A DNA stretch of 22,140 bases. Origin: a virus. Lineage: Duplodnaviria; Heunggongvirae; Uroviricota; Caudoviricetes. Below the pieces are notes generated by a model, which was not told where the DNA came from, did not search any database, and worked only from the letters and a program-made list of their open reading frames with translations. Shown piece by piece: positions 11,921 through 12,230 of the stretch (positions are counted from its first letter, which is position 1; every line of letters begins with the position of its first letter). The position numbers were made by a program, and so were the translations under genes. The stretch lies in IMG/VR virus record IMGVR_UViG_2579779149_000003, one strand, 5' to 3'.

Positions 11921-11995
11921 TGGAGCGGGCAGCGGGAATCGAACCCGCATCATCAGCTTGGAAGGCTGAGGTAATAGCCATTATACGATGCCCGC
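11921..11995 (-). tRNA. tRNA-Gly (anticodon UCC)
   Basis: Reverse complement folds as a canonical cloverleaf: acceptor GCGGGCA/UGCCCGC, anticodon stem UCAGC/GCUGA, loop CUUCCAA (anticodon UCC), T-arm GCGGG-UUCGAUU-CCCGC, discriminator U plus CCA. Resembles E. coli tRNA-Gly2. Confidence 0.8.
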
Positions 11996-11998
11996 ATA

Positions 11999-12074
11999 TG
12001 GTGCCGACTGCCGGAATCGAACTGGTGACCTACTGATTACAAGTCAGTTGCTCTACCTACTGAGCTAAGTCGGC
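11999..12074 (-). tRNA. tRNA-Thr-like (anticodon UGU), T-stem with two mismatches
   Basis: Acceptor GCCGACU/AGUCGGC, D-arm GCUC...GAGC, anticodon stem ACUGA/UCAGU, loop CUUGUAA (UGU), encoded CCA. The T-stem ACCAG/CCGGC has two A-C mismatches, so it may be a divergent phage tRNA or a pseudogene. Confidence 0.55.
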
Positions 12075-12076
12075 AC

Positions 12077-12153
12077 TGGACCGCCACCGGGGACTCGAAC
12101 CTCGCACACTCAACTTAAAGGGTTGACGCTCTTTCCTGATGAGCTAGTGGCGG
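12077..12153 (-). tRNA. tRNA-like gene with atypical anticodon loop CCUUUAA (anticodon UUU by position, C at position 33); identity uncertain
   Basis: Acceptor CCGCCAC/GUGGCGG, D-arm GCUC...GAGC, anticodon stem UCAAC/GUUGA, T-arm CGAGG-UUCGAGU-CCCCG (one mismatch), encoded CCA. Packed 2 nt and 1 nt from neighbouring tRNAs. Confidence 0.45.
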
Positions 12154-12154
12154 T

Positions 12155-12230
12155 TGGTGGCCCTTGCTGGATTTGAACCAGCGACCTGGCGATTATGAGT
12201 CGCTCGCTCTCACCACTGAGCTAAAGGGCC
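12155..12230 (-). tRNA. ileZ: tRNA with anticodon CAU (IleX/IleZ-like tRNA-Ile2, or Met)
   Basis: Reverse complement GGCCCUUUAGCUCAGUGGUGAGAGCGAGCGACUCAUAAUCGCCAGGUCGCUGGUUCAAAUCCAGCAAGGGCCACCA closely resembles E. coli tRNA-Ile2 (ileX) and the ileZ gene of lambdoid prophages; T-arm GCUGG/CCAGC is perfect. Confidence 0.8.

What the first reader, a model, noticed from the sequence alone, without database searches (positions are those of the whole stretch)
11921..12230. Four tightly packed tRNA genes upstream of the lysis cassette, two with non-canonical features
Four tRNA-like genes separated by only 1-3 nt lie on the late-gene strand. Two are canonical (Gly-UCC and an IleX/IleZ-like CAU tRNA). 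The Thr-UGU-like gene has two A-C mismatches in its T-stem, and the fourth has anticodon loop CCUUUAA (C at position 33, anticodon UUU by position) and a T-stem mismatch. These may be phage-adapted tRNAs, pseudogenes or tRNA-derived regulatory RNAs. The 1-3 nt spacing implies one precursor needing precise processing.
Basis: seen in the sequence. Interest (0 to 1): 0.45.

Follow-up and report, generated by a model that had tools for sequence, protein, structure and literature searches.

The report
Prophage tRNA array with anticodon-shifted member
This is the ordinary four-gene tRNA module that E. coli lambda-like prophages carry between the late-gene regulator Q and the lysis genes; three genes match or nearly match known working tRNAs, and the fourth is a phage arginine tRNA whose anticodon has mutated to read lysine codons.

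Summary
The four tRNA genes are real, at the stated coordinates, on the minus (late-gene) strand, and separated by 1, 2 and 3 nt. Gly-UCC is identical to host glyT. The CAU gene is identical to Stx-phage ileZ. Thr-UGU is host thrU with one private SNP: one of its two A·C mismatches is native to thrU, the other is absent from the other arrays compared. The odd fourth gene is a member of a phage tRNA-Arg family. It is 8 substitutions from an Arg(UCU) gene and sits in the slot that Arg(UCU) occupies in otherwise identical Ile-Arg-Thr-Gly arrays. It carries C35→U (UCU→UUU) and U33→C. Its low covariance score (44 bits) and T-stem A·C pair are shared with Stx argN (43 bits). The allele family occurs in 798 of 5,426 complete E. 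coli genomes, and PGAP names the exact and near-exact alleles tRNA-Lys. Whether it is charged and used was not resolved. Its diversity equals that of the flanking non-coding DNA, but the cloverleaf, CCA end and a Lys-like loop are kept. [quoted passage not shown] An anti-nuclease role is therefore possible but untested. Overall this is a known kind of element with one modestly interesting member.

The parts
12351..12374 (-). Terminator-like hairpin with a T-run (AAACCCGCATCAAGCGGTTTTTTT) upstream of the array. The window copy has a 1-nt deletion in the stem compared with its relatives.
   Evidence: Sequence and alignment of upstream regions. It is conserved in PPompW, Evi, S51 and PhiR47_1.
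12240..12268 (-). Sigma-70-like promoter TTGCAA-N17-TATTAT. It ends 9 nt before the first tRNA and is followed by a GC-rich discriminator (CCTGCGCCC).
   Evidence: Promoter scan, 9 of 12 matches. The block is conserved in six relatives even where the sequence further upstream diverges. Diversity at -45..-1 is 0.009 per site against 0.099 for -100..-1. Activity is inferred and was not shown.
12155..12230 (-). tRNA-Ile2 (anticodon CAU, read as AUA after lysidine modification); identical to Stx-phage ileZ.
   Evidence: 72.5 bits; 0 differences from ileZ, 8 from K-12 ileX; C4-G69 and C5-G68 present. PGAP names it tRNA-Ile.
12077..12153 (-). Anticodon-shifted phage tRNA: an Arg(UCU)/argN-family scaffold (C1-G72, A20, U73, A51·C63) with anticodon UUU and C33. 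It is annotated tRNA-Lys.
   Evidence: 44.4 bits; argN 43.0 bits; 8 differences from Arg-UCU L175, 7 from Lys-UUU/U33 L135; 798 genomes.
11999..12074 (-). tRNA-Thr(UGU): host thrU with one substitution (U65→C, window 12010), which adds A49·C65 to the native A52·C62.
   Evidence: (67.0 bits against 73.8 for thrU).
11921..11995 (-). tRNA-Gly(UCC); identical to host glyT.
   Evidence: (64.9 bits, the same score as glyT).
11694..11920 (-). Highly structured spacer between tRNA-Gly and the holin: three long hairpins (11869-11914, 11791-11859, 11737-11789) and then a short GC hairpin with a U-run (11694-11711). It is a possible end of the tRNA transcription unit in the absence of Q.
   Evidence: Fold of 11690-11920: -79.5 kcal/mol, z = -4.84, 0 of 200 shuffles fold as well. 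Coordinates. No Rfam family matches. The terminator role is inferred.

Best explanation
This is the tRNA module that E. coli and Shigella lambdoid prophages carry between the Q antiterminator and the lysis cassette. The ancestral array was Ile2(CAU)-Arg(UCU)-Thr(UGU)-Gly(UCC), four readers of A-ending codons that are rare in E. coli (AUA, AGA, ACA, GGA). It is probably transcribed from its own conserved sigma-70-type promoter just upstream of the first gene, and also by Q-modified late read-through. The single precursor would then be cut at each 5' end by RNase P, and the 1-3 nt trailers trimmed back to the encoded CCA. In this lineage the Arg slot has undergone C35→U, which turns UCU into UUU, plus U33→C. 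The product still folds as a cloverleaf and has a host-Lys-like loop apart from C33 (C32, UUU, A37, A38). It most likely behaves as a weak auxiliary tRNA that LysRS charges through its UUU anticodon. Charging should be poor because the discriminator is U73 rather than A73. Shown here: the sequences, their homologies, the array architecture and the population frequencies. Inferred: promoter use, processing, charging and any benefit to the phage.
For: - Detection and scores.
- Gly equals glyT, Ile equals ileZ, and Thr is thrU plus one SNP.
- Slot 2 is homologous to argN, with a compensatory 30:40 G-C to A-U change and two G·U pairs turned into Watson-Crick pairs.
- Slot 2 is 8 differences from Arg(UCU) L175, with identical acceptor and anticodon stems.
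- Arrays with the same spacing but Arg(UCU) in slot 2 exist: L138 (n=26) and L197 (n=5).
- A sister Lys(UUU) allele has U33, G51-C63 and U4-A69. The U4·G69 intermediate allele occurs 16 times, which points to maintained pairing.
- All 111 Lys-type alleles keep C33 and UUU.
- The cloverleaf is the minimum-energy fold.
- The promoter block is conserved.
- Early and moron genes in the window use ATA, ACA, GGA and AGA 2-4 times more often than K-12 (the K-12 values are recalled from memory).
- Lys identity rests on UUU plus A73; Arg identity needs A20 plus C35 (PMC9976931).
- C33 barely affects yeast tRNA-Leu(GAG) (PMC13492127).
- Bacterial t6A37 modification needs 36-UAA-38 and not U33 (PMC13276492).
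Against: - Late structural and lysis genes in the window are not enriched in ATA, ACA, GGA or AAA, so codon supply for late proteins is not evident here.
- AAA is a major codon served by six host lysT-family genes, so an extra Lys gene adds little supply.
- Slot-2 diversity (0.016 per site outside the ascertained stretch) equals that of the flanking non-coding DNA and is about twice that of Thr and Gly.
- Alleles that are clearly damaged are common and unannotated. Examples are the 1-nt D-arm deletion allele in O157/O111/O145 prophages, which scores below the Rfam threshold.
- U33 is almost universal in bacterial elongator tRNAs.
- Covariation statistics on 16 alleles are not significant (141 of 500 shuffles reach the observed value).
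- No expression or aminoacylation data were available.
Confidence: 0.6

Rival explanations
1. Anti-defence module. The array replaces or out-doses host tRNAs destroyed by tRNA-cleaving defences. [quoted passage not shown] On this view the UUU anticodon on a foreign Arg scaffold gives a Lys decoder that these nucleases do not recognise, and the thrU copy works by dosage.
For: - AriB needs U36-A-A-U-C|A41 and U16; U39A, A41C or U16C block cleavage (PMC12409363). The window gene has U36-A-A-G-U-U41 and C16.
- Old needs paired CNG motifs at 28-30 and 40-42 (PMC12445682). The window gene has CAA and UUG there.
- Phage tRNAs with the right anticodon rescue cells from AriB, Old and PrrC toxicity.
- A host-identical tRNA driven by a strong phage promoter can rescue from retron-Eco7.
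- Other temperate phages (SfI, Sf6, ST64T, phage 21) carry Asn(GUU) and/or Thr(UGU) at the same position downstream of Q (PMC3636060). Lys, Thr and Asn are the three main AriB targets.
- The UUU allele family is in 798 genomes, against 16 and 28 for the two Arg(UCU) alleles tested.
- A supply role for Lys is implausible, because the host has six Lys(UUU) genes.
Against: - The prophage Thr has the host thrU anticodon arm and D-loop unchanged, so it should stay sensitive.
- The lack of nuclease motifs is what any Arg scaffold would show, so it is not evidence of selection for escape.
- T5's proven resistant tRNA-Lys keeps U33 and A73, so C33 is not a shared escape signature.
- Gly(UCC) and Ile(CAU) are not among the targets named in the papers read.
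- Slot 2 shows weak constraint.
- No experiment has been done on this tRNA.
Confidence: 0.2
2. Slot 2 is a decaying relic. An Arg(UCU) gene lost its function through the anticodon mutation C35→U, which removes a major ArgRS determinant. C33 and A51·C63 are further lesions. The gene persists only by hitch-hiking between the useful Ile and Thr-Gly genes.
For: - Diversity equals that of the flanking non-coding DNA.
- High-frequency alleles carry a D-stem deletion or U8C and are left unannotated by PGAP.
- The deletion allele scores below the Rfam threshold.
- Depositors of phages 606R7, 689R5 and Evi did not annotate it.
- C33 and U73 are both unfavourable for a Lys tRNA.
- Excising the gene without damaging its neighbours would be hard with 1-2 nt spacers (inference).
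Against: - The exact allele is the commonest one: 65 of 111 IMG/VR copies and 279 complete genomes.
- Thr, whose sequence is a proven functional tRNA, has as many segregating sites per site (0.11 against 0.12).
- Stem changes that reached appreciable frequency preserve pairing, while pair-breaking changes are singletons.
- Two Lys(UUU) sub-lineages differ by a compensated 4:69 pair.
- A37, A38, C32, the T-loop, G18-G19 and the CCA end are all intact.
- A51·C63 is shared with argN.
Confidence: 0.35
3. The odd genes are tRNA-derived regulatory RNAs or tRNA-like structural elements rather than decoders.
For: Only the unusual loop and the heavily structured 230-nt region downstream of the array.
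Against: - Full cloverleaves with encoded CCA ends.
- Three of the four are identical or nearly identical to working tRNAs.
- No Rfam family other than tRNA matches at any meaningful score.
Confidence: 0.03

Closest known systems
Stx-phage ileZ-argN-argO tRNA cluster (933W-type; here Stx2a_F349, AP012530)
   Same: It sits in the same position downstream of Q on the late strand. ileZ is identical. The promoter block is the same conserved one. Slot 2 is homologous to argN, with the same C1-G72, U73 and A51·C63 and a similar Rfam score (43.0 against 44.4).
   Different: argN has anticodon UCG with U33, whereas the window gene has UUU with C33 and 12 substitutions. The third gene, argO (UCU), is replaced here by Thr(UGU)-Gly(UCC).
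Ile(CAU)-Arg(UCU)-Thr(UGU)-Gly(UCC) prophage arrays (IMG/VR L138 and L197 types)
   Same: Identical four-slot architecture and spacers, and nearly identical Ile, Thr and Gly genes.
   Different: Slot 2 there is a canonical Arg(UCU) with U33 and C35. Those alleles are rare in complete E. coli genomes (16 and 28 of 5,426, against 798).
Host E. coli thrU and glyT (thrU-tyrU-glyT-thrT operon)
   Same: The mature sequences are identical for Gly and differ by 1 nt for Thr.
   Different: Only the mature tRNA bodies match. The flanks and spacers are unrelated, and tyrU and its spacers are absent.
Nuclease-resistant tRNA-Lys, -Thr and -Asn of phage T5 (PARIS escape) and phage tRNA-Thr(UGU) that rescue from P2 Old
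   Same: The same anticodons (UUU, UGU) are carried by a phage. Slot 2 lacks the AriB site and has C16, as T5 tRNA-Lys does.
   Different: T5 tRNA-Lys is a Lys-type body with U33 and A73. The window Thr is unchanged in the targeted arm. No resistance or rescue has been shown for the prophage genes, and the phage here is temperate.
Asn(GUU) and Thr(UGU) tRNAs downstream of Q in SfI, Sf6, ST64T and phage 21
   Same: tRNA cargo of temperate enterobacterial phages at the same position, including Thr(UGU).
   Different: Different gene sets, with no Lys-type or Ile gene. The authors interpreted them as codon supplements.
Natural C33 elongator tRNA: yeast tRNA-Leu(GAG)
   Same: C33 occurs in a working elongator tRNA with little functional cost.
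   Different: It is eukaryotic and an unrelated isoacceptor. It says only that C33 need not be disabling.

Membership tests
Canonical tRNA (Rfam RF00005 cloverleaf) | Covariance-model score above the gathering threshold (29 bits) | tested here: met
   72.5, 44.4, 67.0 and 64.9 bits.
Canonical tRNA (Rfam RF00005 cloverleaf) | 7/4/5/5-bp stems with conserved U8, A14, G18-G19, the T54-Psi55-C56 loop, a purine at 37 and a CCA end | tested here: met
   All are present in the four genes. Exceptions within stems are Thr A49·C65 and A52·C62, and slot-2 A51·C63.
Canonical tRNA (Rfam RF00005 cloverleaf) | U33 (U-turn nucleotide) | tested here: not met
   Slot 2 has C33 at window 12120. The other three genes have U33.
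E. coli tRNA-Lys(UUU) (lysT family) | Anticodon U34-U35-U36 (LysRS determinants) | tested here: met
   UUU at window 12117-12119. Identity rules from PMC9976931.
E. coli tRNA-Lys(UUU) (lysT family) | Discriminator A73 | tested here: not met
   The discriminator is U73.
E. coli tRNA-Lys(UUU) (lysT family) | Sequence descent from the Lys tRNA body | tested here: not met
   The body is of the phage Arg type: 8 differences from Arg(UCU) L175, and lysT stems are unrelated.
E. coli tRNA-Lys(UUU) (lysT family) | Charged with lysine in vivo | not testable with these tools
   This needs aminoacylation assays.
Phage Arg(UCU/UCG) tRNA family (argN-like, C1-G72) | Shared scaffold and array position | tested here: met
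Phage Arg(UCU/UCG) tRNA family (argN-like, C1-G72) | A20 (major ArgRS determinant) | tested here: met
   The D-loop is A14-U15-C16-A17-G18-G19-A20-A20a-A21.
Phage Arg(UCU/UCG) tRNA family (argN-like, C1-G72) | C35 and an Arg anticodon | tested here: not met
   Position 35 is U and the anticodon is UUU.
tRNA-Ile2 (lysidine, ileX/ileZ type) | CAU anticodon on the Ile2 body with C4-G69 and C5-G68 (TilS determinants, from my own knowledge of Ikeuchi et al. 2005) | tested here: met
   It is identical to ileZ and 8 differences from ileX, and both pairs are present. PGAP names it tRNA-Ile. The lysidine modification itself was not tested.
Nuclease-resistant phage 'rescue' tRNAs (T5 tRNA-Lys type) | Same anticodon as a host tRNA targeted by a defence nuclease | tested here: met
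   UUU (slot 2) and UGU (Thr) match the AriB, Old and PrrC targets.
Nuclease-resistant phage 'rescue' tRNAs (T5 tRNA-Lys type) | Altered nuclease recognition or cleavage site | tested here: inconclusive
   Slot 2 lacks U39, C40, A41, U16 and the CNG motifs, but any Arg scaffold would. Thr is unchanged from thrU in the targeted arm.
Nuclease-resistant phage 'rescue' tRNAs (T5 tRNA-Lys type) | Demonstrated resistance to cleavage and rescue of infection | not testable with these tools
   This needs in vitro cleavage and plating assays.

The most novel reading that the evidence does not exclude
Lambdoid prophages in about 15% of E. coli genomes carry a Lys(UUU) decoder built on an arginine-tRNA body with C33. 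On this reading it is invisible to the Toprim and anticodon nucleases that destroy host tRNA-Lys (PARIS AriB, PrrC, partly P2 Old). It sits beside an extra thrU copy that buffers loss of tRNA-Thr(UGU), so the array downstream of Q would be a temperate-phage counter-defence module and not a codon supplement.
Probability: 0.2. Interest if true: 0.7.

Novelty: new member of a known kind. Interest (0 to 1): 0.33.

Why it matters
Phage tRNA clusters downstream of Q are long known and have usually been read as rare-codon supplements. Recent work shows that lytic-phage tRNAs can defeat tRNA-cleaving defences aimed at Lys(UUU) and Thr(UGU). If the prophage Lys-type gene is functional, it would be a natural case of a tRNA changing amino-acid identity through one anticodon mutation. 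It would also extend tRNA-based counter-defence to temperate lambdoid phages, the classic victims of P2 Old. If it is a relic, it shows that annotation pipelines are calling a probable non-decoder 'tRNA-Lys' in hundreds of E. coli genomes.

Tried and rejected
- **Covariation test:** a test on 16 alleles of the slot-2 family gave 94% paired cells but no significance (141 of 500 shuffles reached the observed value). There is too little variation for statistics.
- **Species scan:** a scan of species-representative genomes for the scaffold's 3' half found only E. coli and Shigella flexneri, so no cross-genus comparison was possible.
- **Other U33 alleles:** a search for more U33 Lys(UUU) alleles found only L135.
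- **Literature:** searches for ileZ/argN/argO returned nothing usable. The eLife paper on anticodon-loop escape says nothing about position 33.
- **C33 as an escape signature:** rejected. T5's resistant tRNA-Lys has U33, and K. lactis gamma-toxin cleaves a C33 substrate normally.
- **Thr as a phage-adapted tRNA:** rejected, because it is thrU plus a private SNP.
- **Capture of the host operon:** rejected, because the flanks do not match the thrU-tyrU-glyT operon.
- **Lambda G/GT frameshift link:** I considered a link to the slippery site G GGA AAG, which is decoded by Gly-UCC and Lys-UUU (from my own knowledge). I did not pursue it, because the tail genes lie outside the window and lambda itself has the site without any tRNA genes.
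- **Structured spacer:** an Rfam scan of the spacer downstream of the array gave no family.

Full report
**Observation**

ARAGORN finds four tRNA genes at the coordinates given, all on the minus strand: CAT 12155-12230, TTT 12077-12153, TGT 11999-12074 and TCC 11921-11995. Rfam's tRNA covariance model scores them 72.5, 44.4, 67.0 and 64.9 bits against a threshold of 29, with E-values from 2e-14 to 1e-6. The spacers are A, GT and TAT, and each gene encodes its CCA end. The cmscan alignments confirm two non-standard pairs in the Thr T-stem and one in the T-stem of the TTT gene. They also confirm that gene's loop, CCUUUAA, with C33 at window 12120.

**Context**

The window is an E. coli lambdoid prophage. 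The 601 nt around the array are 100% identical to the chromosome of strain LSN03-016011/A, and 304 of 5,426 complete genomes hold at least 80% of that stretch. In that record NCBI's pipeline names the genes tRNA-Ile, -Lys, -Thr and -Gly with no pseudogene flag.

On the minus strand the order is as follows:
- Q antiterminator (14023-14382, PF06530)
- three opposite-strand ORFs
- the tRNAs
- holin (11413-11628)
- a DUF1327/YdfR protein
- lysozyme
- Rz
- Bor/Iss (on the plus strand)
- lambda-like Nu1/A/W/B/C/D/E head genes

**Identity of each gene**

- Gly is identical to K-12 glyT.
- The CAT gene is identical to Stx-phage ileZ and differs from ileX at 8 positions. It keeps C4-G69 and C5-G68.
- Thr differs from K-12 thrU at one position, U65→C. 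thrU itself carries A52·C62, so only A49·C65 is new.
- That new base is a private SNP at window 12010. Strain S51, otherwise 99.5% identical, has the thrU base. In IMG/VR 69 of 101 prophage Thr copies equal thrU, and the window allele is not among the twelve commonest.
- Only the mature bodies of Thr and Gly match the host. The flanks and spacers are unrelated to the thrU-tyrU-glyT-thrT operon.

**The TTT gene belongs to a phage Arg tRNA family**

- Stx phages align to the window only over ileZ and their argN. argN (anticodon UCG) differs from the window gene at 12 of 77 positions. These include a compensatory G30-C40 to A30-U40 change and two G·U pairs that are Watson-Crick pairs in the window gene.
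- Both genes share C1-G72, U73 and the A51·C63 mismatch. argN scores 43.0 bits, essentially the same as the window gene's 44.4. The low score is therefore a property of the scaffold and does not indicate decay.
- A D-arm pattern scan of IMG/VR showed a broad phage Arg(UCU/UCG) family with this scaffold.
- L175, an Arg(UCU) gene, has the same acceptor and anticodon stems and differs at 8 positions, including U33→C and C35→U.
- Arrays with identical spacing and near-identical Ile, Thr and Gly genes carry a canonical Arg(UCU) in slot 2: L138 (n=26) and L197 (n=5).
- The ancestral array therefore read AUA, AGA, ACA and GGA. The window's 'Lys' is the Arg slot with a one-base anticodon change plus C33.
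- One relative, L135, is Lys(UUU) with a canonical U33, G51-C63 and U4-A69. The 4:69 pair runs C-G (window), U·G (an allele seen 16 times) and U-A (L135). This is a compensatory path, and it suggests the UUU state has persisted in a folded RNA.

**Population data**

| Measure | Result |
|---|---|
| Commonest architecture among the 120 loci returned by a slot-2 T-arm pattern scan of IMG/VR | Ile-Lys-Thr-Gly, 92 loci |
| Lys-type alleles keeping C33 and UUU | 111 of 111 |
| Lys-type alleles identical to the window | 65 of 111 |
| Complete E. coli genomes with the allele family | 798 of 5,426 |
| Complete genomes with the exact allele | 279 |
| Complete genomes with the L138 / L197 Arg(UCU) alleles | 16 / 28 |

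PGAP annotates exact and near-exact alleles as tRNA-Lys. It leaves the 1-nt D-arm-deletion allele (O157/O111/O145 prophages) and a 96.1%-identity allele class unannotated. The deletion allele also falls below the Rfam threshold. Two named phages carry the exact allele, and their depositors did not annotate it.

Diversity per site across 50 fully alignable arrays:

| Segment | Diversity per site |
|---|---|
| Ile | 0.0016 |
| Gly | 0.0069 |
| Thr | 0.0089 |
| Slot 2 | 0.0123 (0.016 outside the 18 nt used to find the loci) |
| Downstream non-coding DNA | 0.016-0.021 |

Segregating sites per site are similar for slot 2 (0.12) and Thr (0.11). Constraint on slot 2 is therefore weak at best, but it is not clearly weaker than on a sequence known to be functional. 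The covariation statistics are not significant.

**Expression signals**

TTGCAA-N17-TATTAT lies at 12268-12240 and ends 9 nt before ileZ. It is preceded by a terminator-like hairpin at 12351-12374. This block is conserved in the window, PhiR47_1, an Stx2 phage, PPompW, Evi and S51, even where the sequence further upstream is unrelated. It is ten times less diverse than the -100..-1 stretch as a whole.

Downstream, the stretch folded between Gly and the holin (11690-11920, 231 nt) is unusually stable, with z = -4.84. It ends in a short GC hairpin with a U-run at 11694-11711. No Rfam family matches it.

I infer that the array has its own promoter and is also read through by Q-modified polymerase. 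Neither point is shown. From general knowledge of E. coli tRNA operons, processing of a precursor with 1-3 nt spacers should rely on RNase P cuts at each 5' end followed by 3' trimming.

**Function: codon supply**

Early and moron genes in the window use ATA, ACA, GGA and AGA 2-4 times more often than K-12. The late head and lysis genes do not (the K-12 figures are recalled from memory). Codon supply is therefore plausible for part of the genome only. It is implausible for Lys, because the host has six Lys(UUU) genes.

**Function: amino-acid identity of slot 2**

Lys identity rests on the UUU anticodon and A73. Arg identity rests on A20 and C35, with U73 tolerated (PMC9976931). Slot 2 has UUU, A20 and U73. 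Lysylation is therefore likely but weakened, and residual arginylation cannot be excluded.

C33 need not be disabling:
- Yeast tRNA-Leu(GAG) works with C33 (PMC13492127).
- Bacterial t6A37 modification needs 36-UAA-38, which slot 2 has, and makes no base-specific contact with U33 (PMC13276492).

**Function: counter-defence reading**

[quoted passage not shown] U39A, A41C or U16C block cleavage, and the T5 tRNA variants rescue infection (PMC12409363).
- P2 Old, the classic anti-lambda system, cleaves tRNA-Thr(UGU) at paired CNG motifs in the anticodon stem. Phage Thr(UGU) tRNAs rescue cells from it (PMC12445682).
- PrrC170 toxicity is relieved by phage tRNA-Lys. A host-identical tRNA-Tyr driven by a strong phage promoter relieves retron-Eco7 (PMC11555353).
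- Slot 2 has U36AAGUU41, C16 and no CNG motifs, so it should escape these enzymes. Any Arg scaffold would do the same.
- The prophage Thr is unchanged in the targeted arm, so it could help only through dosage.
- T5's resistant tRNA-Lys keeps U33 and A73, so C33 is not a shared escape mark.
- SfI, Sf6, ST64T and phage 21 carry Asn(GUU) and/or Thr(UGU) at the same site downstream of Q (PMC3636060). Together with Lys(UUU), these are the three main AriB targets. This is suggestive and nothing more.

**Verdict**

- Thr is thrU plus a private SNP.
- The T-stem mismatch and low score of slot 2 are traits of its family.

The interesting residue is an Arg-to-Lys anticodon shift with C33, fixed in a widespread prophage lineage. 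Its function is unresolved among three readings: a weak Lys decoder, a nuclease-proof Lys decoder, and a relic.

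Noticed in passing
window 12462-13373 (+), with 13377-13622 (+) and 13623-14009 (+): Three opposite-strand ORFs sit between Q and the tRNA array. The 303-aa protein matches the PADLOC candidate defence family PDC-S42 over its full length (E 3e-53) and phrog_3243. It has no Pfam hit, and RefSeq calls it hypothetical. It looks like a defence-type moron that the late transcript must cross in antisense.
   Followed up: partly
window 11694-11920 (-): The spacer of about 230 nt between tRNA-Gly and the holin is exceptionally structured: three long hairpins and then a small terminator-like hairpin, with z = -4.84 and 0 of 200 shuffles folding as well. 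It matches no Rfam family. It is nearly identical in phage phi467, which has only the Thr-Gly pair.
   Followed up: partly
L019 1469-1550 and L031 3739-3820 (IMG/VR loci): About 650 nt downstream of the Gly gene, these two arrays carry an extra 82-nt tRNA-like gene. It has the argN-family acceptor and T arms but an aberrant anticodon region. ARAGORN calls it Val(aac).
   Followed up: no
window about 12288-12398 (-), by correspondence to L131 789-899: RefSeq annotates a 36-aa 'antiterminator' CDS in strain S51 that overlaps the terminator and promoter block upstream of ileZ. It may be a remnant of a displaced Q gene or a spurious call. The window copy has a 1-nt deletion (at 12357) in the terminator stem there.
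   Followed up: no
window 17059-17233 (-) and neighbouring hokD: A sok antisense RNA (Rfam RF01794, 110 bits) lies in the prophage early region. In the reference strain LSN03-016011/A an annotated hokD toxin gene sits at the corresponding place.
   Followed up: no
window 7483-8385 (-): A ClpP-like SDH-type serine protease (PF01972, E 4e-22; phrog_11747) lies between the Nu1-like small terminase gene and the lysis/Bor region, which is an unusual place for a protease.
   Followed up: no
L009 949-1135 (phage Evi): In phage Evi an STnc100 sRNA (RF02076, 120 bits) lies downstream of the Ile-Lys-Arg tRNA cluster. The window has no counterpart.
   Followed up: no
L253 (phage T5, AY543070 28038-34029): T5 also encodes Thr(UGU), Gly(UCC), Lys(UUU) and Asn(GUU). 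Of the window array's four anticodon types, UCC, UGU and UUU therefore also occur in the tRNA set of a lytic phage known to escape PARIS.
   Followed up: partly
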